DNA of 10,649 bases from a virus, in UHGV virus genome UHGV-0292054, one strand, 5' to 3'. The position numbers and the translations under genes are program-made. This document shows, piece by piece, positions 1 to 10,649 of the stretch. Below the pieces are notes generated by a model. It worked only from the letters and a program-made list of their open reading frames with translations, was not told where the DNA came from and searched no databases. Positions within the stretch are counted from its first letter, which is position 1. Every line of letters begins with the position of its first letter.

Positions 1-855
1 TCAGCAGTTCGTCATCAGGGCGTCACCGCCACCACCGGTGGCCTTGCTGCGGCGCTGCTGGGTCAGACTTTCGGTGTGGTCGAGACTGTTTTTCAGGCGG
101 GTGAATGCCTGACTGGTTTCATCCGCCCTGTCAGTCACATCCTGCTTAAGTGCGGAAAAGGCGGTTTCCATCTCAGCGAGTCGCTGCTCAGTGGCGCTCA
201 GCTTTTCCTGCACATGTTCAGCAACAGCGGTCACCGCTTCATGCACGTCATTCAGACGGGCGTCATCGCTGGCCTGTTTGCGGCCAAAAATGGATTTCAC
301 CTTTTCGGTCAGGGCGGTGAACACGGTTTCAGGCAGGTCTTCAAATTCCAGCTCAACAGGCGTTGCCACTGAAATCAGGTTTTCAGGGCTTAATTTGAAG
401 CGGTTCAGGGGGTTGTGTTTTGCCGTGCGGCAGAATTCCAGGTATTCCGTGCCGAGGCTTGCCGGGTCATCGGTGACGGCCAGCCCCACCAGATAACATT
501 TGCCGGTGTTGGCAAAGTTCGGCTGAATTTCCATTGAGGTATAGACCTTCTGCGCGGCCTTGTTCATCGCGATAAGGTCATCGGTCGGGGTGATTTTCGC
601 AAACAGCGCCCATTTGCCTTTCAGCGCCGAATCATCGTCAATCTTTTCGGCCTTCAGTTCGGCCACATCGCCATAACGTTTAAAAATGCCGTCAGGCAGG
701 ATGCCGCGCAGATGTTCCAGGTTAATACGGCAACCATAGACTCGCGGGTCAAAGGTTTCGGCCATTTCCTGAATATCCTGCGCACTGATGACACGCCCGT
801 CACAGGTGTCACCCTCAACGCCGATACGAAAGAATTTTGAGACTTTTTTAGCCAT
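1..855 (-). CDS. O: Capsid scaffolding protein GpO (P2-like), full length, 284 aa
   Basis: ORF track 1..921 minus; the product from the internal ATG at 855 (MAKKVSKFFRIGVEGDTCDGR...) matches my recollection of P2 gpO in sequence and length. The TTG/GTG-extended start at 921 was rejected. Stop codon is at 1..3. Divergent from P as in P2. Confidence 0.88.
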   Translation of the reverse strand: MAKKVSKFFRIGVEGDTCDGRVISAQDIQEMAETFDPRVYGCRINLEHLRGILPDGIFKRYGDVAELKAEKIDDDSALKGKWALFAKITPTDDLIAMNKAAQKVYTSMEIQPNFANTGKCYLVGLAVTDDPASLGTEYLEFCRTAKHNPLNRFKLSPENLISVATPVELEFEDLPETVFTALTEKVKSIFGRKQASDDARLNDVHEAVTAVAEHVQEKLSATEQRLAEMETAFSALKQDVTDRADETSQAFTRLKNSLDHTESLTQQRRSKATGGGGDALMTNC

Positions 856-1028
856 TGTCAGGAGTCCTGAATAGTGAGTAGAGGAGTCACATGTCGGCAT
901 CAGTTTCCCGACGATGCGCATCCTCCGCCATCAGTCCCGGATGGCTTATCACTGACACAACAGCACCTTAGCGAATCGCGGGGCGCGACTCAGTAGCCTT
1001 GCCGTGTATTCATCACGGCGAGGTATTC
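856..1028. promoter_or_regulatory. Divergent intergenic region between O and P, expected to carry the Ogr-dependent late promoters
   Basis: 173-bp spacer between divergent late genes, same arrangement as the P2 O/P promoter region. I could not find clean TGT-N12-ACA activator dyads by eye, so the call is positional only. Confidence 0.35.
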
Positions 1029-2801
1029 ATGACCATCACCACAGACACCACTCTTTTACACGACCCGCGTCGTCAGGCGGCGCTGCTGTACTGGCAGGGG
1101 TTTTCCGTGCCGCAGATTGCCGCCATGTTGCAGATGAAACGCCCGACGGTGCAGAGCTGGAAACAGCGCGACGGCTGGGACAGCGTTGCCCCCATCAGCC
1201 GTGTCGAAATGAGCCTGGAAGCGCGGCTGACCCAGCTCATCATCAAACCGCAGAAAACCGGCGGTGACTTCAAGGAAATTGACCTGCTGGGACGCCAGAT
1301 TGAACGACTGGCACGGGTAAATCGCTACAGCCAGACCGGCAACGAGGCAGACCTTAATCCGAACGTCGCTAACCGCAACAAAGGCGGGCGTCGCAAACCG
1401 AAAAAGAATTTTTTCAGTGACGAAGCCATCGAAAAGCTGGAGCAGATTTTCTTTGAGCAGTCTTTCGACTATCAGTTGCACTGGTATCGCGCCGGGCTTG
1501 AGCACCGCATCCGCGATATCCTGAAATCCCGCCAGATTGGCGCGACGTTTTATTTTTCCCGCGAGGCACTGCTGCGCGCCCTGAAAACCGGTCATAACCA
1601 GATTTTTCTGTCGGCCAGTAAAACGCAGGCGTATGTGTTCCGCGAATACATCATCGCCTTTGCCCGTCTGGTGGACGTTGACCTTACCGGTGACCCGATT
1701 GTCCTGGGCAATAACGGCGCAAAACTGATTTTTCTCGGCACCAACTCCAACACCGCGCAGAGCCATAACGGCGACCTGTACGTCGATGAGATTTTCTGGA
1801 TCCCGAATTTTCAGGTACTGCGTAAGGTGGCATCAGGTATGGCCTCACAGAGTCACCTGCGCTCGACCTATTTCTCCACCCCGTCCACGCTGGCGCACGA
1901 CGCCTACCCGTTCTGGTCAGGTGAACTGTTCAACCGGGGACGTGCCAGCGCCGCCGAACGTGTGGAAATCGACGTCAGTCATAACGCCCTTGCCGGGGGG
2001 CTTCTCTGTGCGGACGGCCAGTGGCGGCAGATTGTCACCATTGAGGACGCCCTGAAAGGTGGCTGCACGCTGTTCGACATTGAGCAGCTCAAACGTGAAA
2101 ACAGCGCCGACGATTTTAAAAACCTGTTCATGTGTGAATTTGTTGACGACAAGGCGTCGGTGTTCCCGTTCGAGGAGCTGCAACGCTGCATGGTCGACAC
2201 GCTGGAAGAATGGGAAGACTATGCGCCGTTTGCCGCCAATCCGTTCGGCTCCCGCCCGGTATGGATTGGTTACGACCCGTCACACCGTGGCGACAGTGCC
2301 GGATGCGTGGTGCTGGCACCGCCGGTGGTGGCCGGTGGCAAATTCAGAATACTTGAGCGTCACCAGTGGAAAGGCATGGACTTTGCCACCCAGGCTGAAT
2401 CCATCCGCAAACTCACCGAAAAATACAACGTCGAATACATCGGAATTGATGCCACCGGCCTCGGTGTCGGCGTGTTCCAGCTCGTGCGCTCGTTCTATCC
2501 CGCCGCGCGTGATATCCGCTACACGCCGGAAATGAAAACCGCAATGGTGCTCAAGGCAAAAGACGTCATCCGCCGTGGCTGTCTGGAATACGACGTCAGC
2601 GCCACCGACATCACCAGCTCGTTTATGGCTATCCGCAAGACCATGACCAGCAGCGGACGCAGCGCCACCTATGAGGCCAACCGCAGCGAGGAAGCCAGCC
2701 ACGCCGACCTCGCCTGGGCGACCATGCACGCCCTGTTAAATGAGCCACTCACCGCCGGTATCAGCACCCCGCTGACATCCACCATTCTGGAGTTTTACTG
2801 A
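1029..2801 (+). CDS. P: Terminase large (ATPase) subunit GpP, 590 aa
   Basis: ORF track 999..2801 begins at a TTG; ATG at 1029 is preceded by GAGGT 5 nt upstream. Product MTITTDTTLLHDPRRQAALLYWQGFSVPQIAAM... matches P2 gpP in sequence and length. Stop TGA overlaps the Q start. Confidence 0.9.
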   Translation: MTITTDTTLLHDPRRQAALLYWQGFSVPQIAAMLQMKRPTVQSWKQRDGWDSVAPISRVEMSLEARLTQLIIKPQKTGGDFKEIDLLGRQIERLARVNRYSQTGNEADLNPNVANRNKGGRRKPKKNFFSDEAIEKLEQIFFEQSFDYQLHWYRAGLEHRIRDILKSRQIGATFYFSREALLRALKTGHNQIFLSASKTQAYVFREYIIAFARLVDVDLTGDPIVLGNNGAKLIFLGTNSNTAQSHNGDLYVDEIFWIPNFQVLRKVASGMASQSHLRSTYFSTPSTLAHDAYPFWSGELFNRGRASAAERVEIDVSHNALAGGLLCADGQWRQIVTIEDALKGGCTLFDIEQLKRENSADDFKNLFMCEFVDDKASVFPFEELQRCMVDTLEEWEDYAPFAANPFGSRPVWIGYDPSHRGDSAGCVVLAPPVVAGGKFRILERHQWKGMDFATQAESIRKLTEKYNVEYIGIDATGLGVGVFQLVRSFYPAARDIRYTPEMKTAMVLKAKDVIRRGCLEYDVSATDITSSFMAIRKTMTSSGRSATYEANRSEEASHADLAWATMHALLNEPLTAGISTPLTSTILEFY

Positions 2802-3835
2802 TGAGCAAGAAAAAAGGGAAAACACCGCAACCTGCGGCAAAAACAATGACCGCCAGCGCCCCGAAAATGGAAGCATTCACCTTTGGTGAGCCGGTGCCGG
2901 TACTCGACCGCCGTGACATTCTGGATTACGTCGAGTGCATCAGTAACGGCAGATGGTATGAGCCACCGATCAGCTTTACCGGTCTGGCAAAAAGCCTGCG
3001 TGCTGCCGTGCATCACAGCTCACCGATTTACGTCAAACGTAATATTCTGGCCTCGACATTTATCCCGCATCCGTGGCTTTCCCAGCAGGATTTCAGCCGC
3101 TTTGTGCTGGATTTTCTGGTGTTCGGTAATGCGTTTCTGGAAAAGCGTTACAGTACCACCGGTAAGGTCATCAGACTGGAAACCTCACCGGCAAAATATA
3201 CCCGCCGTGGCGTGGAGGAGGATGTTTACTGGTGGGTGCCGTCCTTCAACGAGCCGACACCTTTCACGCCCGGCTCCGTGTTTCATCTGCTGGAGCCGGA
3301 TATTAATCAGGAGCTGTACGGCCTGCCGGAATATCTCAGCGCCCTTAACTCTGCCTGGCTGAATGAGTCAGCCACGCTGTTCCGCCGCAAGTATTACGAA
3401 AACGGCGCACATGCCGGATACATCATGTACGTCACTGATGCCGTGCAGGATCGCAACGATATCGAAATGCTCCGCGAAAACATGGTGAAGTCGAAAGGCC
3501 GCAACAACTTTAAAAATCTGTTTCTCTATGCCCCGCAAGGGAAAGCCGACGGCATTAAAATTATCCCGCTCAGTGAAGTGGCAACGAAGGACGATTTTTT
3601 TAATATCAAAAAAGCCAGCGCCGCAGACCTGCTGGACGCGCACCGCATCCCTTTTCAGTTGATGGGCGGCAAGCCGGAGAACGTCGGGTCGCTGGGTGAT
3701 ATTGAGAAAGTGGCAAAGGTCTTTGTCCGCAATGAGCTTATCCCGTTACAGGACAGGATCCGCGAGATAAACGGCTGGCTCGGTCAGGAGGTCATCCGCT
3801 TTAAAAACTACTCACTGGACACTGACAACGGCTGA
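2801..3835 (+). CDS. Q: Portal (capsid-vertex) protein GpQ, 344 aa
   Basis: ATG at 2801 overlaps the P stop (TGATG), indicating translational coupling. Length and sequence match P2 gpQ. Transcribed toward cos as in P2. Confidence 0.9.
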   Translation: MSKKKGKTPQPAAKTMTASAPKMEAFTFGEPVPVLDRRDILDYVECISNGRWYEPPISFTGLAKSLRAAVHHSSPIYVKRNILASTFIPHPWLSQQDFSRFVLDFLVFGNAFLEKRYSTTGKVIRLETSPAKYTRRGVEEDVYWWVPSFNEPTPFTPGSVFHLLEPDINQELYGLPEYLSALNSAWLNESATLFRRKYYENGAHAGYIMYVTDAVQDRNDIEMLRENMVKSKGRNNFKNLFLYAPQGKADGIKIIPLSEVATKDDFFNIKKASAADLLDAHRIPFQLMGGKPENVGSLGDIEKVAKVFVRNELIPLQDRIREINGWLGQEVIRFKNYSLDTDNG

Positions 3836-3840
3836 ACATC

Positions 3841-3862
3841 GCCGCCTGCGGGCGGCTTTTTT
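3841..3862 (+). terminator. Rho-independent terminator downstream of Q
   Basis: GCCGCC-TGCG-GGCGGC hairpin followed by TTTTTT, 6 nt after the Q stop codon. Confidence 0.6.
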
Positions 3863-4004
3863 ACCCCCCGTCATCACGCCCTCACACGCTCACCACCGCA
3901 CAAAACAGCCCGCAGACACACCAACGCCCCGGCGCACAATCTAAACGCCATCACGACGCGCTCAGACGCTGAAAAAATAAAATCAGCACCACCGCCAGCG
4001 CGCA

Positions 4005-4023
4005 GTGCTTTCCCCGCCTCGCC
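4005..4023. other. P2-type cos site (19-nt cohesive end sequence)
   Basis: gtgctttccccgcctcgcc at 4005..4023 is the reverse complement of GGCGAGGCGGGGAAAGCAC, the P2 cohesive end as I recall it. Its position next to Q and its orientation fit the P2 map. Confidence 0.65.
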
Positions 4024-4169
4024 CGCCCGCTTCATGGGTCGGTTTTAATGCAGTTGCATGAACACCGTCAAACCTAGCTAGCATTGGCAGCAGAAAGCAA
4101 GTGAGCTAGACTAAAGCACATTCAAACTCATGCACCAAATGATGCACGGAAAAAACAGAGAAATCGCGG

Positions 4170-4199
4170 AAAAAGCAAAAAAATAGCACCCAAAGGTGC
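4170..4199 (-). terminator. Putative rho-independent terminator ending the cargo operon (minus strand)
   Basis: GCACC-CAAA-GGTGC hairpin at 4186..4199, followed on the minus strand by a T-rich run (plus-strand aaaagcaaaaaaata at 4170..4185). Lies just downstream of the stop at 4211. Confidence 0.45.
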
Positions 4200-4210
4200 C
4201 ACTTTGATGA

Positions 4211-4783
4211 TTAATTTTTATTGTCGCCAGAAGGTTTATTGTTGCTTTTGAACAAACCACTAACAACAAACCCAACCAATCCCACAATACTCACAGTTGT
4301 GGTTCCCATAAGCGCAATGATAATTGTTTCTGGTGGATCAAAATCTTTTTTCAATACATACATAAATATGACCCAGCCGACAAAACAACACCAAACAATC
4401 ATGAATTGATATGTTTTATCAGCCATAGTTCTACGGAGCTCATTGTCCGTAAGCAGGCCGTCGGTTTCCGCATTTTTTCTTTTGGTTTCTGCCTGTACGC
4501 TTTCAAGGTTAGTGCTTATAGTTTCAACACAGCGACTCAATTCAGCAATTTGAAAATTAAGACTGGATAAATCCAAACGCTGCATGGTCGCAGCATCCTC
4601 TTCTTCCTTTTGCATTTCATCAACAGCGTCCTCAACAGACTCAGGCTCATGAGATTCTTCATCCCAACAGCCCTCATCTCCCAAAGCCGCAGAGGCAGTT
4701 ATCAGATTCTGCTCAGCTTGCTGCAATCGTCTGAGAAGGTCTTTATCAAATTCAGCTGTCACTTTCTTATTATCGTCAGGCAT
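4211..4783 (-). CDS. Hypothetical membrane protein, 190 aa: acidic/coiled-coil-like N-terminal domain plus two C-terminal hydrophobic helices; candidate toxin/effector of the cargo module
   Basis: ATG at 4783..4781. Hydrophobic stretches QFMIVWCCFVGWVIFMYVL and TIIIALMGTTTVSIVGLVGFVVSGLF; acidic segment DEESHEPESVEDAVDEMQKEEED. AT-rich relative to the flanking phage genes. No homologue recalled. Confidence 0.6.
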   Translation of the reverse strand: MPDDNKKVTAEFDKDLLRRLQQAEQNLITASAALGDEGCWDEESHEPESVEDAVDEMQKEEEDAATMQRLDLSSLNFQIAELSRCVETISTNLESVQAETKRKNAETDGLLTDNELRRTMADKTYQFMIVWCCFVGWVIFMYVLKKDFDPPETIIIALMGTTTVSIVGLVGFVVSGLFKSNNKPSGDNKN

Positions 4784-4787
4784 AAAA

Positions 4788-4809
4788 AACCCCGTACATA
4801 GACGGGGTT
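4788..4809 (-). terminator. Intercistronic terminator-like hairpin (possible attenuator) between the two cargo genes
   Basis: Perfect 8-bp stem AACCCCGT / ACGGGGTT with a 6-nt loop, followed on the minus strand by a U-run that ends at the ATG of the downstream gene (4783). The only purine-rich candidate SD (GGGG) is inside the stem. Confidence 0.45.
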
Positions 4810-4823
4810 ATCTTAATTCGGAC

Positions 4824-5294
4824 TCATAGTCCGATGCAATTGCTATCGCCGTGTAGCAGCTTTTGATAGTAATCCTGAATAACGGAATCAGGAATGATAT
4901 CCATACGACTATCCATTGCTTGCTTCCAAGGAGTACCTTCACGATGTGTGAAAGCAGATAAATCCTCAGCGGTATATTTACCGTAAACGTTATAAACGTT
5001 CTGCAGCAACTGCTCAGTCATAGGGTCAAACTCCTGAGAAATTGCCGATGGAACTTGTATTGGTTGTGTTATGGGACTACGGCCATAAACTTTAAGATAG
5101 TTATACAGAACTGGAACCACTGGACCATAACGCCATGCACAAACTGGTGTCGTTAACAAAGGCGTCCCTTTGTAACCCAGATTTATACCATGTGCTATAT
5201 AGGTCAGCTTTTGTGCCTGCATCTGGGTGATTGGCATACCAGCCGCGCAAGCAAGTTCTATAAACTTATTCGCGATGTTCAATGGGCTGTACAT
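4824..5294 (-). CDS. Panacea/DUF4065-like protein, 156 aa (PanA/SocA-type candidate antitoxin or sensor)
   Basis: ATG at 5294 preceded by AAGGAGG 6 nt upstream; the track start at 5345 is a GTG and was rejected. The motif QKLTYIAHG...G.PLL...AWRYGPVVPVLY resembles the conserved core of PF13274 as I remember it. Sits directly upstream of the membrane-protein gene. Confidence 0.55.
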   Translation of the reverse strand: MYSPLNIANKFIELACAAGMPITQMQAQKLTYIAHGINLGYKGTPLLTTPVCAWRYGPVVPVLYNYLKVYGRSPITQPIQVPSAISQEFDPMTEQLLQNVYNVYGKYTAEDLSAFTHREGTPWKQAMDSRMDIIPDSVIQDYYQKLLHGDSNCIGL

Positions 5295-5511
5295 ACTCAA
5301 CCTCCTTTGCTGTCCTCTTATGTCACGAAAAGCAACCGAGAACACTCAATTTTTACCTATACCCGAGCCTTCAAGCCTGGAATTGTAAACGCTATATCTT
5401 AAGCATACTCAACATTGCGCGCGGAGTATAAATTTGATAGTGAGCATACACAATCAATAAACCATATATTTTTATAGAAATATACATTTATAGCATCTTT
5501 CCAGATTAAAG

Positions 5512-5531
5512 TACTGTATATAAAAACAGTA
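5512..5531. promoter_or_regulatory. LexA (SOS) box
   Basis: TACTGTATATAAAAACAGTA has CTGT-N8-ACAG with an AT-rich spacer, 18/20 matches to the consensus TACTGTATATATATACAGTA. Lies between the A stop (5572) and the cargo operon start. Confidence 0.65.
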
Positions 5532-5555
5532 TAATGATTTTTATCACACTTGCAA
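5528..5555 (-). promoter_or_regulatory. Putative sigma70 promoter for the cargo operon (minus strand), overlapped by the LexA box
   Basis: Minus-strand reading gives TTGCAA (5555..5550), a 16-nt spacer, then TATACT (5533..5528). The -10 overlaps the LexA box, the usual layout of SOS-repressed promoters. Confidence 0.4.
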
Positions 5556-5571
5556 CGCTGTTCATTTCAGT

Positions 5572-7754
5572 TTATATGAATCCCGGCCACTCATCAGCGA
5601 CCGGATACGTGAATTTTTTCCCGTCATAATTTACTGTTGCCCCACGCGCCAGCGCCTCAAGCTCCCATCGCTGCGGCCTGATACCGTTCTGAGCAAGGTC
5701 AACGCGGATACGGGTGATTTGCATTCTTTCCGACCGGGTCAGTCTGGCCGATGGTGCAATTTCATGTGGTTTTAACGGGCTTCCGTTTCTTTGCTGACGG
5801 TTTGGTCTTCTCAGGCCGTGTTTTAATGCGCTTCTGAGCGCCCTCACAACCTCCGGGTCATTCCATTCGATAACACCGTCATCAACCAGATTAAGCACTG
5901 CTGCGGCGTGCTCAGAAGGTGTGGGAGCCGGTAACGAAGTATCACCACCGTTGAGCTTTCCACAGTTATTGACAGGACTCCGAGGCGCGGCGATGCCGCT
6001 TTTTAAAGTCAAAGGCTCAACGACCGGAACTTTCGGCACAATGCGCCAGTCCGTCGTTCTGGTGATATGAATATGACGCGCGCCGAGATGCGGCGCGTAA
6101 ATGCCGACCACTCTCTCGACTTCTTCCTCGTACTCGTTAACTTCATCCGACGGGCTACGGGCGACTCTGACAGTCTGGCAATCGCGCGGAACATTTGCCC
6201 CACCCTGCGCACTGATATACAACGCAAAATCGCCACTGTCTGCGGCAGCGCGTGCAGCCTCGACGCGTTCGTCAAACTCATCAGCAATGCTGACGCCCAT
6301 GCAGTAACAGCCGCGGCAGTATCTTTCAGAGGTCTGCCGGTATCGTTATCGAGCTGACCATCCAGTGCATAGCCGTCGATGTTTTTTGAGATGTATTTCG
6401 CGATATACCCCGCAGCACCGCCCCGATTAAGGTGTTTTGCCTGAAAACGGTTTCGCGCTGCTCCTCTTTCGTCGCCATCCTCTTTGAGCGCATAGCGACG
6501 CATGATTTCGATAATCTGGTTACGCTGGCGCGAATTACAAAAAAGCATCATATGCCAGTGCGGCGTTCCGTCGTGGTGTGGCTCGACGACACGCAAACCG
6601 TAGACCTGTAAATCATTATCCTTGAATGCCGTGCGCATCAGGCTCCAGATGCGGCAGAGATAACGCTGCGCATCCTTTGGATTAAATGCCTCATCGTTCC
6701 AGCCGTGATTAAGCTGAACGGTTTTACTTTCGCCTTTTCTGACCTGACGAGTCGGGTGATACTTTGACGGCGCAGTCAGCGTGATAAACATCCCCACATC
6801 ACCCTCTGCGGCGGCGTAACGCTCAATACCGGCAATGGTGTTCATCAGCTCCATCCGGCGAATTTCAGGATTAGAAATACTGCCCATCACCTTACTGATA
6901 AGGTCGATGCGCTCGCCGGTTTCCCTGTTTTCAAGGTCACACGATTTAAGAAATTCCAGATTTGCCTGGCGGCGCGCACGCACATCACGAATGGCGTGTT
7001 TACTGGCATAAGGAGAACGGTCTTTATTGACCTCCCCGACAGCTATCAGTAACGCTTCATGCCAGCGCATACGCTGGCCTTTAAGCTGATGAGTCCACCA
7101 CTCATCGTTAAACAGACGGGCAATGGCAGAATATGCCTGCCTCGTGGTCATCTGCCCTTTACGGTATTTTTTCCAGTAGAGAGGGGAAATATTGAAAGCA
7201 CGTGCAGCGCCAGCAACATGACCATAGAGGTGAGCCTGCGCCTCATCCGTAAACAGCGATTCTTTTTCGCCATGCGCATCCACCCAGGCATCGCAGAGTT
7301 CCTCATACATCATGAAAAGCTGCGATGAGATACGGGCGGCAAACTTTTTCAGCTCCTTGTCATTCATCCCCGGCAGACGCGCATAATGGTCACGCTCTGC
7401 CAGAAACAGCAACGACGCGTCGGTGTTCATTTCATGGCGCTGATTCACACGCTCAATGCGCGGCCATAAACGACGCTGAAAAGTGGATGTGAGAAAATAA
7501 AACCCGTGCACCGGGCTTTTATTGCGCCGGATGTAGTCATAGCGTGAAGTAAACAGCGAGCGCAAAAAGTAAGGCAGGCGGTTAATCGTGGATAAAACAC
7601 CTTGCACCTGACGCATCTCGTCACGTGTAAGGGGTCTTTCGCGCCCGACAGCCTCGCGTGGCGCGTTCCATGCATAAGCACCGGTAAGCGCCTTACCGGT
7701 GCCTGCGGCAAATGCTGACGGAGGGACAAAACGCCCGGAGGCTTTAACGGCCAT
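5572..7754 (-). pseudogene. A: Replication initiation endonuclease gene A (P2 gpA family), interrupted by a frameshift or small deletion near 6295..6310
   Basis: Two overlapping minus-strand ORFs in different frames (6009..7796 and 5572..6300) both match P2 gpA: the N-terminal part MAVKASGRFVPPSAF...AGYIAKYISKNIDGYALDGQLDNDTGRPLKDTAAAVTAWAS and the C-terminal part GVSIADEFDERVEAARAAADSGDF...PGFI. The 93-aa tail of the long ORF is the out-of-frame reading of the C-terminal part. ATG at 7754 chosen over the TTG at 7796. Combined length is about 727 codons against about 761 recalled for P2 A. Confidence 0.7.
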
Positions 7755-8019
7755 ATGAGCCAAAAGCCTCTGAACAACGCTTGCTGAGTTGCTCAACCTG
7801 CACGTTTAAATCAGCAAAAGACTTTGCGCTTCCGGTCAGAATATCGTGATGCATCAGGCCTGAAACGAGCTGGCTTAATTTCGGGTAATAACCAACCACC
7901 GCCAGCCATTCCTGACCGGCGTTTTTACCGCTTTCAGCTCTCTTTTTCTCGTGGAGAATAAACTGAAAGCTGTCACTGGTAACGACATAACGTTCGCCAA
8001 TTTCAATACGAATACTCAT
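7744..8019 (-). CDS. Small early-operon protein, 91 aa (position of P2 orf83)
   Basis: ATG at 8019 overlaps the upstream stop (ATGA); ends 11 nt inside the A start. Typical coupled small ORF of the P2 early operon. Confidence 0.55.
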   Translation of the reverse strand: MSIRIEIGERYVVTSDSFQFILHEKKRAESGKNAGQEWLAVVGYYPKLSQLVSGLMHHDILTGSAKSFADLNVQVEQLSKRCSEAFGSYGR

Positions 8020-8240
8020 GCCGTTCTCCGGTAATGTTTGTTTTTTGCTTCAAAGACTGACTGACAGGAAACACAACGCGTGGCTGACGGGTAAGCCGCA
8101 CGACGGGCAGCAGGTATTGGCGCGTCACACTCTTCGCAAACCAGCGCAGAAGCACCGCAATGTTTTACCCTTGCCGCGTTAATCTGGCGCTCCAGTAATT
8201 CAGCCTGTTGTTCCTGAATAAAATCTACGTTGTCCGGCAT
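8016..8240 (-). CDS. TraR/DksA-family C4 zinc-finger protein, 74 aa (P2 orf82-like)
   Basis: Four cysteines in CGASALVCEEC...RCVSCQ, the pattern of phage TraR/DksA-like proteins. ATG at 8240 overlaps the upstream stop (TAATG). Confidence 0.6.
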   Translation of the reverse strand: MPDNVDFIQEQQAELLERQINAARVKHCGASALVCEECDAPIPAARRAAYPSATRCVSCQSVFEAKNKHYRRTA

Positions 8241-8542
8241 TACCAGTTCCTTTTGTCGTTCAGTTTTTTAAATTCATCAGCGCAATAGCTGGCGATTTCT
8301 GTCGTTAATTTCGTCAGTTCATCCACGGAGGAAATTTGCTTGTGAAATACAGCGCGTTTAACAAGTAAATTGACCACATCAGACAGGAGGTTTAATTCAC
8401 TCTGATAAATCGCGATAACAGATTCAGTTATTTCGCGTTTTTCTTTATCAAGACCAAGTTGAATAAGAGACAAATCGCCATTTTTCATAACGGCGATTTT
8501 TAAGGCATTGTTCAGTAAAACAACTGAACGAGAACAGGACAT
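8240..8542 (-). CDS. Hypothetical early-operon protein, 100 aa, AT-rich
   Basis: ATG at 8542 overlaps the upstream stop (TGATG). Visibly lower GC than neighbouring genes. No recognisable motif. Confidence 0.5.
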   Translation of the reverse strand: MSCSRSVVLLNNALKIAVMKNGDLSLIQLGLDKEKREITESVIAIYQSELNLLSDVVNLLVKRAVFHKQISSVDELTKLTTEIASYCADEFKKLNDKRNW

Positions 8543-8766
8543 CAAAGCACCTCCCCGCGAGACAATCCGATGTTGTGAAATTTTTCCGACTCCTGACTGA
8601 GCAGCTCGACTATCTCCACGCGGGATAACTCCGCCTTTGTGATGTGGCGAATCATGGCGTCAAGATGAGAAGAAAAGCGCGTCGCTGCATCGGCCTGTGC
8701 TTCGGTTCTGGCCTGTTGCAGCAGTAATGCGTATTTACCGCACTGATTTTCAGAAACTGTATGCAT
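8542..8766 (-). CDS. Hypothetical early-operon protein, 74 aa
   Basis: ATG at 8766 preceded by GGAGA; the track start at 8799 is probably a non-ATG extension. Product [21 protein letters not shown]... Confidence 0.5.
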
Positions 8767-8829
8767 GACTTTCTCCAGGCAAAAAGAAGCCCCGCACAAT
8801 TAAGTGCGTTAAAAACTCTGGTTAATTAC

Positions 8830-9336
8830 TTAATGCAGATATTGCTCTGGTTTTACCGACGTCAGAATTGTCGGTGCATACTCAAACAGGCTGAATAATT
8901 CACGTAATGCACGGAATAAAGCATCACGCCAGTAACATGACTCTTCATTAATTCGCCAGTATGGCTGGTTGAATTCTTTTTCAGTCAATCCGGCATGCAT
9001 AAATAAAGTGCGACGCTGACTGACTGTTAAAAAACTAATATATGCATACTCACTTGCGCCAACCTGACGGCGTTTTGAGAATGCCCCACGCAATTCATCA
9101 ATTGCACAAACCAGCCGTTCACGTTCGACGTCGTTCATTTCTTCAAAACGCATCGTTGCGTGACGCTGTTTTAACTGCGCATGAAAGCAAACCGTTAGCC
9201 GTTCGCGCTCCATCATCTGATTATAATAATCACATGTATCCTGCCAGCGAGGAACGGCAAGATGCTTACCAATTATCCGGCGCATAGCTGCTGGCTGTTT
9301 TTCAACGAGATTGAGCGTCATCACTGTCATTTCCAT
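8830..9336 (-). CDS. B: Replication protein B (P2 gpB-like), 168 aa
   Basis: ATG at 9336 preceded by GGAGG. Product MEMTVMTLNLVEKQPAAMRRIIGKHLAVPRWQDT... matches my recollection of P2 B in sequence, size (about 166 aa) and position. Confidence 0.75.
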   Translation of the reverse strand: MEMTVMTLNLVEKQPAAMRRIIGKHLAVPRWQDTCDYYNQMMERERLTVCFHAQLKQRHATMRFEEMNDVERERLVCAIDELRGAFSKRRQVGASEYAYISFLTVSQRRTLFMHAGLTEKEFNQPYWRINEESCYWRDALFRALRELFSLFEYAPTILTSVKPEQYLH

Positions 9337-9497
9337 ACCCTCCGGCTTTTCAGAAAGGTCAGAGCCTTTTTTAACGGACTCTGTTTTTTGGTGCGGATAA
9401 TGATTCCCTTACGCCCCTTACCGTGGGTGATGGTGAAGTCAATCGCCCTTGGGCTTTCGTTACGCAGTAACTGAGCAATACAACGCGGTTCACTCAT
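9327..9497 (-). CDS. Small hypothetical protein, 56 aa, between cox and B (position of P2 orf78)
   Basis: ATG at 9497 sits 2 nt after the cox stop (TGATTATG); stop overlaps the B start. The track's longer version from 9524 overlaps cox and is less likely. Confidence 0.4.
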   Translation of the reverse strand: MSEPRCIAQLLRNESPRAIDFTITHGKGRKGIIIRTKKQSPLKKALTFLKSRRVWK

Positions 9498-9499
9498 AA

Positions 9500-9772
9500 T
9501 CACAACCCCATCCACAAAAGCCATGCATCACGCTGTTCAACTGGTCGGTTATAAAACGCCTCTCGTACAGCGCGATTAAACTCTGGAATGAAAACCCACT
9601 TCTCACCGACACGAGCGTTCGGCTTACTTGGATCACGAAGCTCAATAACTGGCAATTTATTCTCTTTTACCATCTTGACTACAGCCGTTTCTGGCTTACC
9701 AAGTAACTCTGCAAACTTAACCGTATGTACCGCATCAATCGGGTACTGAATCACATAGTCATTGACTTCCAT
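9500..9772 (-). CDS. cox: Cox-like excisionase / transcriptional repressor, 90 aa
   Basis: ATG at 9772. The motifs KLPVIEL and GEKWVFIPEFN, the C-terminal DAWLLWMGL, the size and the first-gene position opposite C all fit P2 Cox. Confidence 0.7.
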   Translation of the reverse strand: MEVNDYVIQYPIDAVHTVKFAELLGKPETAVVKMVKENKLPVIELRDPSKPNARVGEKWVFIPEFNRAVREAFYNRPVEQRDAWLLWMGL

Positions 9773-9924
9773 TGATTAGCCCTTTTTGCTTTCGTGTTAC
9801 CCTTATTAGATCCAGTCCCTTCTAGGTCGCCCCTGTCCTTTCTAGGGACTGGCTAACACACTCAAAAGGTCACCAATACACAACCTTTTGACGGGAATAT
9901 AAGTCACCAATAGGTTACTGTCAA
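9773..9924. promoter_or_regulatory. Immunity switch region between cox and C (Pe/Pc promoters and operator repeats)
   Basis: Inverted repeat ccagtccct (9812..9820) / agggactgg (9844..9852). Direct repeats c(c)cttctagg / cctttctagg spaced about 20 bp apart. Direct repeat gtcaccaata at about 9870 and 9903. Candidate Pc is TTGACG (9888..9893), 17 nt, TAGGTT upstream of the C ATG. Confidence 0.5.
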
Positions 9925-10218
9925 ATGCAGACATTCGAAAAACTGAAAGCGATTAGGAAAGCAGAAGGCTTAACACAGGCGAAATTCAGCGAAATTAGCG
10001 GGATAGCTCTAGGAACAGTCAAAAATTACGAAAGTGGGCATAAAGACCCTGGTCTCAGCATCGTTATGCGAGTCACAAATACGCCTTTATTTAAAAAATA
10101 TACGCTCTGGTTAATGACTGGTGATACGTCACCACAAGCTGGTCAGATCGCGCCGGCTCTCGCACACATTGGGCAAAAACCAACAGAATCAGACCACTCC
10201 GAAAAACAGACTGGTTAA
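9925..10218 (+). CDS. C: Immunity repressor C (P2 C-like), 97 aa
   Basis: Divergent from cox. N-terminal HTH-like segment LTQAKFSEISGIALGTVKNYESG; C-terminal KYTLWLMTGD...GQIAPALAHIGQ resembles P2 C. Confidence 0.75.
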   Translation: MQTFEKLKAIRKAEGLTQAKFSEISGIALGTVKNYESGHKDPGLSIVMRVTNTPLFKKYTLWLMTGDTSPQAGQIAPALAHIGQKPTESDHSEKQTG

Positions 10219-10287
10219 CACTCTATAAACATTATATTTTCACCATTTGTTACCAAGATGGTGAATACAGCGTCAGAGGGCTTTCTT

Positions 10288-10533
10288 ATGTCAATTAAGA
10301 AGCTCGATGATGGACGCTATGAAGTGGACATTAGACCTCGCGGTCGCGACGGAAAACGCATCCGCAGGAAATTTGAAAGAAAAGCTGAGGCTGTAGCATT
10401 TGAGCGATACACAATCGCCTACGCCAGCCAGAAAGAATGGGCAGGTCAGCGAGCAGATCGCAGAACTTTGAGTGAGTTGCTGGACATCTGGTGGAAATAT
10501 CACGGGCAAAACCACGAGCATGGAACAAAATAG
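10288..10533 (+). pseudogene. int: Integrase N-terminal fragment (about 81 codons of an expected 337), truncated by IS2
   Basis: ATG at 10288; the track start at 10258 is an upstream ATG. MSIKKLDDGRYEVDIRPRGRDGKRIRRKFERKAEAVAFERY... matches the P2 Int N-terminus. The frame ends at a TAG formed by the first bases of the IS2 end. Confidence 0.8.
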
Positions 10534-10649
10534 ACTGGCCCCCTGAATCTCCAGACAACCAATATCACTTAAATAAGTGATAGTCTTAATACTAGTTTTT
10601 AGACTAGTCATTGGAGAACAGATGATTGATGTCTTAGGGCCGGAGAAAC
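10531..10649 (+). mobile_element. IS2 (IS3 family) left end, continuing beyond the window
   Basis: tagactggccccctgaatctccagacaaccaatatcactta matches the IS2 left inverted repeat as I recall it. About 90 nt later comes ATG ATT GAT GTC TTA GGG CCG GAG AAA, encoding MIDVLGPEK, the start of InsC/OrfA. Confidence 0.8.
10622..10649 (+). CDS. insC: IS2 transposase OrfA (InsC), 5' partial
   Basis: Starts MIDVLGPEK and runs off the window end. Confidence 0.75.

What the first reader, a model, noticed from the sequence alone, without database searches (positions are those of the whole stretch)
1..10649. Degenerate prophage with intact structural and cargo genes: possible domestication
Two key mobility and replication genes (int and A) are disrupted, while O, P, Q, B, cox, C and the cargo cassette have full-length reading frames. 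That pattern is what would be expected if the host keeps the element for its immunity and cargo functions and no longer as a viable phage.
Basis: inference. Interest (0 to 1): 0.45.

Follow-up and report, generated by a model that had tools for sequence, protein, structure and literature searches.

The report
Recently disabled P2-like prophage arm
This is one end of an ordinary P2-type prophage of E. coli that was very recently disabled by a jumping gene landing in its integrase and a small deletion in its replication gene. Everything else is still intact simply because there has been no time for it to decay, so there is no sign yet that the host is "keeping" it.

Summary
The window is the O-P-Q-cos-hotspot-A-B-cox-C-int arm of a P2-like (Peduovirus) prophage. 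int is cut after codon 81 of 326 by an IS2 end, which starts at 10531. A carries a clean 85-bp deletion between two 7-bp direct repeats (6291-6297), leaving 488 native residues plus a 93-residue out-of-frame tail instead of 755 aa. All other genes have the same lengths as in an intact relative.

Domestication is not supported. Apart from the two lesions, the window differs from a complete 31.6-kb prophage in ETEC strain 602354 by one synonymous base in 10.5 kb. Neither lesion junction occurs in 5,426 complete E. coli genomes, the species-representative genomes, JGI metagenomes or IMG/VR. All 11 complete genomes that carry the same cargo lack the A deletion junction and the IS2-int junction. 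The lesions are therefore private and recent, and intact neighbours need no selection to explain them.

The best reading is a freshly "grounded" prophage, a state already described for P2-like elements.

The cargo is a PanA/PanT-like toxin-antitoxin pair in the known gpA-gpQ defence hotspot. It sits behind a conserved promoter that overlaps a LexA box, a minor point that may be unreported.

The parts
1..855 (-). gpO capsid scaffold/protease, 284 aa, intact. Its stop codon is the first three bases of the window.
   Evidence: Pfam Phage_GPO E=1e-109. Same length as in the intact relative.
1029..2801 (+). gpP terminase large subunit, 590 aa, intact. It carries the only base difference from ETEC 602354 (2567, synonymous).
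   Evidence: Pfam Terminase_6N/6C/Terminase_5. SNP located.
2801..3835 (+). gpQ portal, 344 aa, intact
   Evidence: Pfam Phage_portal
4005..4023 (-). 19-nt P2-type cohesive end (cos), GGCGAGGCGGGGAAAGCAC
   Evidence: Exact match. Sequence given for P2-related phages in PMC3931495.
4211..4783 (-). PanT-like putative membrane toxin, 190 aa. Acidic N-terminal region and two C-terminal hydrophobic helices (about 125-146 and 152-178).
   Evidence: phrog_26171. Hydropathy. 44% identity over the C-terminal half to P0066, the partner of a Panacea protein. Weak DUF2975 hit below the Pfam cutoff.
4788..4809 (-). Conserved GC hairpin followed by a T-run that ends at the panT ATG. Terminator- or attenuator-like, and it sequesters the GGGG upstream of the start codon.
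   Evidence: Scan. Conserved in four genera, with one compensatory change, CCCCAT/ATGGGG.
4824..5294 (-). PanA antitoxin (standalone Panacea/SocA domain), 156 aa
   Evidence: Pfam SocA_Panacea E=1.9e-17. RefSeq name 'Panacea domain-containing protein'. dN/dS 0.05-0.13 across genera.
5512..5555 (-). Sigma-70-like promoter (TTGCAA-16-TATACT, 5555..5528). Its -10 element and start region overlap a LexA box, TACTGTATATAAAAACAGTA (5512-5531).
   Evidence: Promoter scan. The LexA box matches the consensus at 18 of 20 positions, and 0 of 200 shuffles give a match. The CTG-N10-CAG core is invariant in four diverged cassettes.
5572..6290 (-). 3' remnant of gene A, now out of frame. It corresponds to residues about 517-755 of intact A and contains the sequence I recall as the P2 ori nick region (5969-5988).
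   Evidence: The ori assignment is from memory and not verified.
6291..6297 (.). Junction of the 85-bp deletion in A: the single remaining copy of the 7-bp direct repeat (GGCGTCA on the gene strand)
   Evidence: Alignment with intact A. A 41-nt junction query finds nothing in 5,426 complete E. coli genomes or in three other collections.
6009..7754 (-). Frameshifted gene A: 488 native residues (GPA nuclease domain, HUH-type motif about 393-401, YIAKYISK at 450-457) plus 93 foreign residues; 581 aa against 755 aa
   Evidence: Pfam Phage_GPA full-length match
7744..9524 (-). Intact early genes: DUF5405 (7744-8019), TraR/DksA zinc finger (8016-8240), DUF5405 (8240-8542), DUF2732 (8542-8766), B (8830-9330), small ORF (9327-9524)
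   Evidence: Pfam and PHROG. Same lengths as in the intact relative.
9500..9772 (-). cox (excision directionality factor and Pc repressor), 90 aa, intact
   Evidence: Pfam Phage_Cox E=9e-24
9925..10218 (+). C immunity repressor, 97 aa, intact. The C-cox switch region is identical to that of the intact relative.
   Evidence: Pfam HTH_3
10288..10533 (+). Truncated int: 81 of 326 codons, with the stop codon TAG supplied by IS2
10531..10649 (+). Left end (IRL) of IS2, in the same orientation as int. The InsC start codon is at 10623. The element runs off the window.
   Evidence: Identical to annotated IS2 copies at ygeQ and mqsR

Best explanation
The window is the early/packaging arm of a P2-like (Peduovirus) prophage of the type integrated between cpxP and fieF in enterotoxigenic E. 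coli. It has just been 'grounded' by two independent, ordinary mutations.

(1) IS2 transposed into codon 82 of int. This removes the catalytic domain, so site-specific excision and re-integration are lost.

(2) An 85-bp deletion lies between two 7-bp direct repeats in gene A, the footprint of replication slippage or microhomology-mediated deletion. It frameshifts the rolling-circle initiator after residue 488. By established P2 biology, A acts in cis and late transcription depends on replication. The lesion should therefore block replication, late gene expression and lysis, and it cannot be complemented.

Both events are private to this genome and very young. The remaining genes (O, P, Q, B, cox, C, cargo) are intact because no time has passed, not because selection has demonstrably preserved them.

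Functions that can still operate in the lysogen are C-mediated immunity and the hotspot cargo. The cargo is a PanA (Panacea antitoxin) / PanT-like (two-helix membrane toxin) pair, transcribed from a promoter overlapped by a LexA box and so probably SOS-inducible.

Shown: the two lesions, their uniqueness, the near-identity to intact relatives, the domain content and the conserved regulatory motifs. Inferred: loss of Int and A function, non-viability, SOS control and PanT toxicity.
For: Synteny and domains.

Backbone 96-98% identical to isolated Peduoviruses.

A complete 31.6-kb relative with no pseudogene flags lies between cpxP and fieF.

The window differs from that relative by one synonymous SNP, the 85-bp deletion and IS2.

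The IS2 boundary is at 10530/10531.

Int and A domain maps.

The C-terminal third of A is under purifying selection in intact relatives (dN/dS 0.10-0.19).

Neither junction is found in any collection searched.

The cassette is present in 11 of 5,426 complete genomes. None has either junction, and the ten spanning matches carry the extra 85 bp of intact A.

Cargo family and regulation.

Literature. Grounding by recombinase mutation is described in PMC6379469. Defective P2-like elements with pseudogenised mobility and replication genes, gpA most often, next to near-identical defence genes are described in PMC13586616. The gpA-gpQ hotspot is described in PMC9122126. PanAT membrane toxins are described in PMC8832971.
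Against: Only about a third of the prophage is visible, so further lesions or a large deletion beyond O or beyond IS2 cannot be excluded.

Loss of A function is inferred. The nuclease domain with both active-site tyrosines is retained.

If the unseen 21 kb is lesion-free, two hits landing one each in A and int would be unlikely by length alone (about 0.004; about 0.016 for any excision or replication gene). That would hint at selection for grounding.

The source genome and reads were not found, so the lesions cannot be verified at read level.
Confidence: 0.8

Rival explanations
1. True domestication. The host lineage benefits from C immunity and the PanAT cargo, and selection favoured and now maintains a locked-in, non-lytic prophage.
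For: Both visible lesions hit excision or replication functions, and the A lesion is the kind that protects the host from lysis after derepression (established P2 biology). The cargo pair is under purifying selection across genera and sits in a known defence hotspot. The same pattern is reported for defective P2-like elements.
Against: The lesions are private: no other genome or contig shares either junction. There is one synonymous difference from intact relatives, so there is no post-inactivation history on which selection could be read. The cargo is equally conserved in intact prophages. O, P and Q are intact although useless to a host. The LexA box suggests the cargo is repressed in unstressed lysogens.
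Confidence: 0.1
2. One or both lesions are artefacts of assembly or of a minority subpopulation, for example a contig that merely ends in or mis-joins to IS2, or a deletion present in only some reads.
For: The window ends only 119 nt into IS2 and starts exactly at the stop codon of O, which looks like a short contig bounded by repeats. The source could not be found.
Against: The int-IS2 join sits exactly at the IS2 terminus (TAGACTGG...), as in genuine insertions at ygeQ and mqsR. An 85-bp loss bounded by a 7-bp direct repeat is a typical biological deletion. It is not a homopolymer error or a k-mer graph artefact (inference).
Confidence: 0.07
3. The element is still a working phage. The truncated A retains nicking and joining activity, and Int is supplied in trans by another P2-like prophage in the same cell.
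For: The complete Pfam GPA domain, the HUH-type motif and the YIAKYISK tyrosines lie upstream of the frameshift. Related strains carry 2-5 P2-like matches per genome.
Against: 267 C-terminal residues, which are under purifying selection in relatives, are replaced by 93 unrelated residues. The IS2 insertion would also add about 1.3 kb (the known length of IS2) to a headful-limited genome with cos packaging. No relative with a naturally short A was seen.
Confidence: 0.03

Closest known systems
Intact P2-like prophage at cpxP-fieF in ETEC strains 602354, ETEC-2265, 120899, 103605, TW10722 and 204446 (RefSeq complete genomes)
   Same: About 100% nucleotide identity over 10.5 kb, with one synonymous SNP against 602354. 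Same gene order and the same PanA/PanT cargo cassette.
   Different: Those copies carry the extra 85 bp of a full-length A and lack the IS2-int junction. In 602354, A is annotated at 755 aa and int at 326 aa. The window has the 85-bp deletion and the IS2 insertion.
Bacteriophage P2 and isolated Peduoviruses (e.g. vB_EcoM-12474III, phage 899, STYP1)
   Same: O-P-Q-cos-hotspot-A-B-cox-C-int synteny, the 19-nt cos sequence, and 96-98% identity over backbone genes.
   Different: The hotspot cargo differs (old/tin in P2; ParB/methylase, Fic, retron, cdt and others elsewhere). No isolated phage in the collection carries this cassette.
'Grounded' or defective P2-like prophages with conserved defence genes (PMC6379469; PMC13586616)
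   Same: [quoted passage not shown]
   Different: Here the state is at its very beginning: two lesions, otherwise intact, not shared with any other genome. The published cases are mostly more eroded islands.
PanAT type II toxin-antitoxin systems with membrane-depolarising toxins (E. coli STEC O31 PanA-PanT, cluster T3; PMC8832971)
   Same: A standalone Panacea antitoxin is followed by a toxin with a charged N-terminus and C-terminal transmembrane helices. Order A|T with a short spacer. Identity is 46% (PanA) and 44% over the C-terminal half (PanT) to a pair with the published 22-nt spacing.
   Different: I could not confirm by accession that the compared pair is the validated one. This cassette lies in the P2 gpA-gpQ hotspot, and its promoter overlaps a conserved LexA box that the compared locus lacks. 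Toxicity and neutralisation are untested.
SOS-controlled genes at the cos-proximal end of P2-family phages (tum of coliphage 186) and LexA-controlled membrane toxins such as TisB (both from memory)
   Same: A LexA box overlaps the promoter of an accessory gene at the same genome position as tum in 186. An SOS-linked small membrane toxin is also the logic of tisB.
   Different: No sequence relationship to Tum or TisB was tested or seen. This is a protein antitoxin-toxin pair, not an antirepressor or a type I system.

Membership tests
P2-like phage (Peduovirus) prophage | Gene order O / P-Q / cos / variable hotspot / A ... B-cox / C-int, with the matching protein families | tested here: met
   ORFs and Pfam; annotated phage and prophage relatives
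P2-like phage (Peduovirus) prophage | High nucleotide identity to isolated members | tested here: met
   96-98% identity over 81-85% of the window to 11 phage records
P2-like phage (Peduovirus) prophage | 19-nt P2-type cohesive end | tested here: met
   Exact match at 4005-4023; sequence as given in PMC3931495
P2-like phage (Peduovirus) prophage | Complete late (head, tail, lysis) gene set and att sites | not testable with these tools
   These lie outside the window, and the source genome was not found
Defective ('grounded') prophage | Inactivating lesion in the recombinase or att sites | tested here: met
   IS2 after codon 81 of 326; the catalytic domain (residues 164-307) is lost
Defective ('grounded') prophage | Inability to replicate or produce particles | not testable with these tools
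   Inferred from the frameshift in A and the constraint on its C-terminal third. Needs an induction or plaque assay.
Domesticated prophage (retained by selection) | Inactivated state inherited vertically and shared by related genomes | tested here: not met
   Neither junction is found in 5,426 complete E. coli genomes or three other collections. The 11 relatives that carry the cassette lack both junctions.
Domesticated prophage (retained by selection) | Purifying selection on retained genes after inactivation, against decay of the others | tested here: inconclusive
   Only one (synonymous) substitution against the intact relative in 10.5 kb, so there is no signal either way
Domesticated prophage (retained by selection) | Demonstrated host benefit of the retained functions | not testable with these tools
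   Requires immunity, defence and fitness assays
PanAT type II toxin-antitoxin | Antitoxin with a Panacea (DUF4065/SocA) domain | tested here: met
   PF13274, E=1.9e-17, 64.6 bits against a cutoff of 25.7
PanAT type II toxin-antitoxin | Adjacent co-oriented partner gene conserved as a pair | tested here: met
   The pair is conserved with a 40-41 nt spacer in the gpA-gpQ hotspot of Escherichia, Scandinavium, Salmonella and Buttiauxella prophages
PanAT type II toxin-antitoxin | Partner is toxic and is neutralised by PanA | not testable with these tools
   Only homology to a probable T3-cluster membrane toxin and two predicted transmembrane helices
IS2 (IS3 family) | Terminal inverted repeat and start of orfA (insC) identical to IS2 | tested here: met
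   119 of 119 nt identical to annotated IS2 copies
IS2 (IS3 family) | Complete element with the right inverted repeat and a target-site duplication | not testable with these tools
   The element runs off the window end
LexA-repressed (SOS) promoter | CTG-N10-CAG palindrome close to the consensus, overlapping a promoter and conserved in orthologous loci | tested here: met
   18 of 20 positions match the consensus, with 0 of 200 shuffles matching. It overlaps the -10 element of TTGCAA-16-TATACT. The core is invariant in four loci whose flanks are about 69% identical.
LexA-repressed (SOS) promoter | LexA binding and DNA-damage induction | not testable with these tools
   Needs EMSA or ChIP, and expression after mitomycin C in lexA+ against lexA(Ind-) strains

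The most novel reading that the evidence does not exclude
The two hits were selected rather than accidental. Loss of A stops replication-dependent late expression, so the host cannot be lysed by its own prophage. Loss of Int prevents curing. The cell keeps C immunity and an SOS-triggered PanAT membrane-toxin module as a fixed defence or abortive-infection island. Because P4-type satellites do not need P2 genes A or int (from memory: Six 1975), the intact late genes could still serve as a helper set.

On this reading the window would capture the first step of domesticating a P2 defence hotspot, with an SOS-wired PanAT system that I found no report of.
Probability: 0.1. Interest if true: 0.4.

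Novelty: new member of a known kind. Interest (0 to 1): 0.2.

Why it matters
In itself it matters little. IS insertions and slippage deletions that ground prophages are routine, and the specific pattern (P2-like element with a dead gpA or int next to an intact defence cassette) is already described.

Its value is as a clean, datable example of the first step: two lesions, one SNP from intact siblings. With the source strain in hand, such a pair of near-isogenic lysogens, grounded and intact, would allow a direct test of whether grounding a P2-like prophage pays.

The side observation may be more useful. A PanA/PanT-type module in the P2 gpA-gpQ hotspot carries a LexA box conserved across four genera, which predicts SOS control of a Panacea toxin-antitoxin system. 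The trigger of such systems is still unknown.

Tried and rejected
(1) Finding the source genome. Exact look-ups of the frameshifted A products (581 aa and 242 aa) found nothing.

Look-ups of the 81-aa and 91-aa Int fragments returned six short contigs. The three whose ends I read (L003-L005) simply stop 1-2 nt after codon 81 and carry the intact int sequence (AAAAG...), not the IS2 junction. The look-up selects for exactly such contig ends, so I took all six, including L008, to be the same. This was a dead end.

(2) Exact scans for both junctions in the species-representative genomes, JGI metagenomes and (deletion junction only) IMG/VR found no matches.

(3) IS2 hits seemed to begin about 15 nt upstream of the IS end. 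Alignment showed this is only partial similarity of the target sites (G-AA-AA before TAGACTGG), and the IS2 boundary stays at 10531.

(4) PADLOC gave no hit of note for either cargo protein. Rfam found nothing above noise.

(5) The weak DUF2975 match of the toxin is below the Pfam cutoff, so I did not use it to assign function.

(6) dN/dS for the window against its intact siblings is impossible because there is only one substitution. I computed it across genera instead, which speaks only to the cassette and to A in general.

(7) I could not confirm by accession that the compared E. coli pair is the experimentally validated PanAT.

(8) The review of phage P2 that I wanted for the cis action of A and the ori position is not held. 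Those points rest on my own knowledge.
Full report
**What the window is**

Six-frame ORFs and Pfam give this order:
- gpO scaffold (1-855, minus strand)
- gpP terminase (1029-2801, plus)
- gpQ portal (2801-3835, plus)
- a 1.7-kb low-GC segment (about 42% against 52-57% elsewhere) with two minus-strand genes
- gene A, rolling-circle initiator (minus)
- four small early genes, then B and cox (minus)
- C repressor (9925-10218, plus)
- the start of int (plus)

The exact 19-nt P2 cohesive end lies at 4005-4023 (sequence as quoted in PMC3931495). Megablast against phage records gives 96-98% identity over 81-85% of the window to 11 isolated Peduoviruses. The uncovered part is the variable cargo. So this is the packaging and early arm, roughly one third, of a P2-like prophage, drawn in reverse relative to the usual P2 map.

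**Checking the two lesions**

The closest sequences are prophages in complete ETEC genomes. In strain 602354 the element is a 31.6-kb prophage between cpxP and fieF. It has a full late-gene set and no pseudogene flags; A is 755 aa and int is 326 aa.

*Gene A.* Aligning the window's A region with that gene shows a single gap of exactly 85 bp and no other difference. The gap is bounded by two copies of GGCGTCA, one of which remains at 6291-6297. Translation gives 488 native residues and then 93 out-of-frame residues, 581 aa in total. The Pfam GPA domain (133-462), the HUH-type motif (about 393-401) and YIAKYISK (450-457) lie upstream of the break. The last 267 residues are lost.

*int.* Homology to intact int stops at 10530. 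From 10531 the sequence TAGACTGGCCCCC... is identical over all 119 remaining bases to annotated IS2 copies inserted at ygeQ and at mqsR in other strains, including the InsC start codon. Int is therefore cut after residue 81. It loses most of the Int_N domain (57-155) and all of the catalytic domain (164-307). The TAG stop codon comes from the IS2 terminus.

*Other genes.* All other genes translate without interruption and have the lengths annotated in the intact relative.

**Are the lesions more than chance, and are they real?**

A deletion bounded by a short direct repeat and an IS joined exactly at its inverted repeat are both typical biological events. They are not homopolymer errors or k-mer graph artefacts (inference).

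I could not find the source. Exact-protein look-ups and exact-junction scans in all available collections were negative, so the lesions cannot be confirmed at read level.

The window starts exactly at the stop codon of O and ends 119 nt into IS2. That looks like a short contig bounded by repeats.

Statistically, two lesions cannot show targeting. By length, the deletion would fall in A with probability about 0.21 within the window, and the IS2 position may define the window edge. If the unseen 21 kb were lesion-free, one hit each in A and int would have probability about 0.004. That cannot be evaluated here.

**Testing the domestication reading**

- The cargo cassette (4060-5560) occurs in only 11 of 5,426 complete E. 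coli genomes, always chromosomal, at 99.5% identity or more.
- The ten of these whose match spans the locus carry the extra 85 bp of an intact A.
- A 41-nt query that can only match across the deletion junction finds nothing in the 5,426 genomes.
- No record contains the int-IS2 junction.
- Apart from the lesions, the window differs from strain 602354 at a single position, 2567, a synonymous change in P.

The lesions are therefore private to this genome and very recent. With essentially no substitutions, dN/dS cannot be computed, and the integrity of O, P, Q, B, cox, C and the cargo is what recency alone predicts. O, P and Q are late genes that are silent in a lysogen (established P2 biology), so their integrity is no evidence of host use.

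The defining features of domestication fare as follows: a shared inherited inactive state is not met, post-inactivation purifying selection is uninformative, and host benefit is untestable here.

**Likely consequences of the lesions (inference)**

Without the catalytic domain, Int cannot excise or re-integrate the element.

The missing C-terminal third of A is under purifying selection in intact relatives. dN/dS is 0.10-0.19 between the Escherichia, Salmonella and Scandinavium copies, so the truncation is probably inactivating even though the nuclease core remains.

From established knowledge of P2 (my own; the review I wanted is not held), A acts in cis and late transcription needs replication. 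An A-defective prophage therefore cannot be rescued in trans and should not lyse its host after derepression.

The C-cox switch and C are identical to the intact relative, so immunity should persist.

**The cargo**

The two genes lie in the gpA-gpQ interval, the known P2 defence hotspot that holds old and tin in P2 itself (PMC9122126).

The upstream gene (4824-5294) is a standalone Panacea/SocA antitoxin (PF13274, E=1.9e-17).

The downstream gene (4211-4783) encodes a 190-aa protein with an acidic N-terminal region (30 D+E against 13 K+R in residues 1-120) and two C-terminal hydrophobic helices. This is the architecture described for the membrane-depolarising PanT toxins of E. coli and Bartonella (PMC8832971).

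The pair is 46% (PanA) and 44% over the C-terminal half (PanT) identical to an E. coli Panacea-plus-182-aa pair with the same antitoxin-then-toxin order and the 22-nt spacer listed for the validated STEC O31 system. I could not confirm the accession match.

The pair is conserved in the same hotspot in prophages of Scandinavium, Salmonella and Buttiauxella, with dN/dS of about 0.05-0.13, although dS is near saturation. PADLOC does not recognise it, and no isolated phage in the collection carries it.

**Regulation of the cargo (noticed in passing)**

Twenty to forty bases downstream of the A stop codon, on the cargo strand, there is a promoter-like site, TTGCAA-16-TATACT. Its -10 element and start region are overlapped by TACTGTATATAAAAACAGTA (5512-5531). 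This matches the LexA consensus at 18 of 20 positions, and none of 200 shuffles produced a match.

The CTG-N10-CAG core and the -10 element are invariant in the four cassettes from different genera, although the surrounding 290 bp are only about 69% identical. The more distant E. coli PanAT locus has no such box.

Between panA and panT, a GC hairpin followed by a T-run that ends at the panT ATG is conserved, with one compensatory change.

These features predict SOS-inducible transcription with attenuated toxin expression. I found no paper in the library that links Panacea systems with LexA. A second conserved leader block (5414-5439) remains unexplained.

**Comparison with what is known**

Grounding of prophages by recombinase mutations, including IS insertions, is a described concept (PMC6379469).

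A 2026 survey of thousands of P2-like and P4-like elements reports defective P2-like regions. [quoted passage not shown]

The window is a new, very early example of that known kind. It is not a new kind.

**Verdict**

The best explanation is a recently grounded P2-like prophage carrying an intact, probably SOS-controlled PanAT-type cassette (confidence about 0.8).

Interest is low (0.2). The most novel reading not excluded is selected grounding that fixes an SOS-wired defence island, with probability about 0.1.

Noticed in passing
window 5512-5555 (minus strand): A near-consensus LexA box (TACTGTATATAAAAACAGTA) overlaps the -10 element of the only good promoter upstream of the panA-panT cargo. 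The CTG-N10-CAG core is invariant in the orthologous cassettes of Scandinavium (L013), Salmonella (L015) and Buttiauxella (L017) prophages. This predicts SOS control of a Panacea toxin-antitoxin module. No paper in the library links the two.
   Followed up: partly
window 4788-4809 (minus strand): A conserved hairpin, AACCCCGT-ctatgt-ACGGGGTT, followed by a T-run that ends at the panT start codon. One compensatory change occurs in Scandinavium (CCCCAT/ATGGGG). It looks like an intra-operon terminator or attenuator that also hides the GGGG upstream of the ATG. It could set the antitoxin-to-toxin ratio.
   Followed up: partly
window 5414-5439: A second strongly conserved block in the panA leader (minus strand ...TATCAAATTTATACTCCGCGCGCAAT...) across four genera, with no assigned function and no Rfam match.
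   Followed up: no
window 6298-6300 and ORF 5572-6300 (minus strand): The deletion brings an existing ATG into frame with the C-terminal part of A. This creates a 242-aa ORF that corresponds to residues 514-755 of intact A. No obvious ribosome-binding site precedes it, so it is probably meaningless.
   Followed up: partly
window 10516-10535; L019 1501-1520; L020 1501-1518: Three independent IS2 insertion sites (int here, ygeQ, mqsR) share a similar sequence just outside the left end (G-AA-AA-(A/G)-N before TAGACTGG). This may reflect an IS2 target preference. It made BLAST extend IS2 hits into the flank.
   Followed up: partly
window 1-3 and 10531-10649: The window begins exactly on the stop codon of gene O and ends 119 nt inside IS2. 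This suggests it may be a whole short contig bounded by repeats (a second P2-like prophage and IS2), so the state of the remaining two thirds of the prophage is unknown.
   Followed up: no
window 4060-5560: This exact cargo cassette is rare. It occurs in 11 of 5,426 complete E. coli genomes (mostly human ETEC, plus two pig strains and one river isolate) and in no isolated phage record, yet diverged versions occupy the same hotspot in three other enterobacterial genera.
   Followed up: yes
window 5969-5988 (minus strand): The sequence GCGCCTCGGAGTCCTGTCAA, which I recall as the P2 ori nick region inside gene A, survives downstream of the deletion. The cis site would then be present while its initiator is broken. 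The assignment is from memory only.
   Followed up: no
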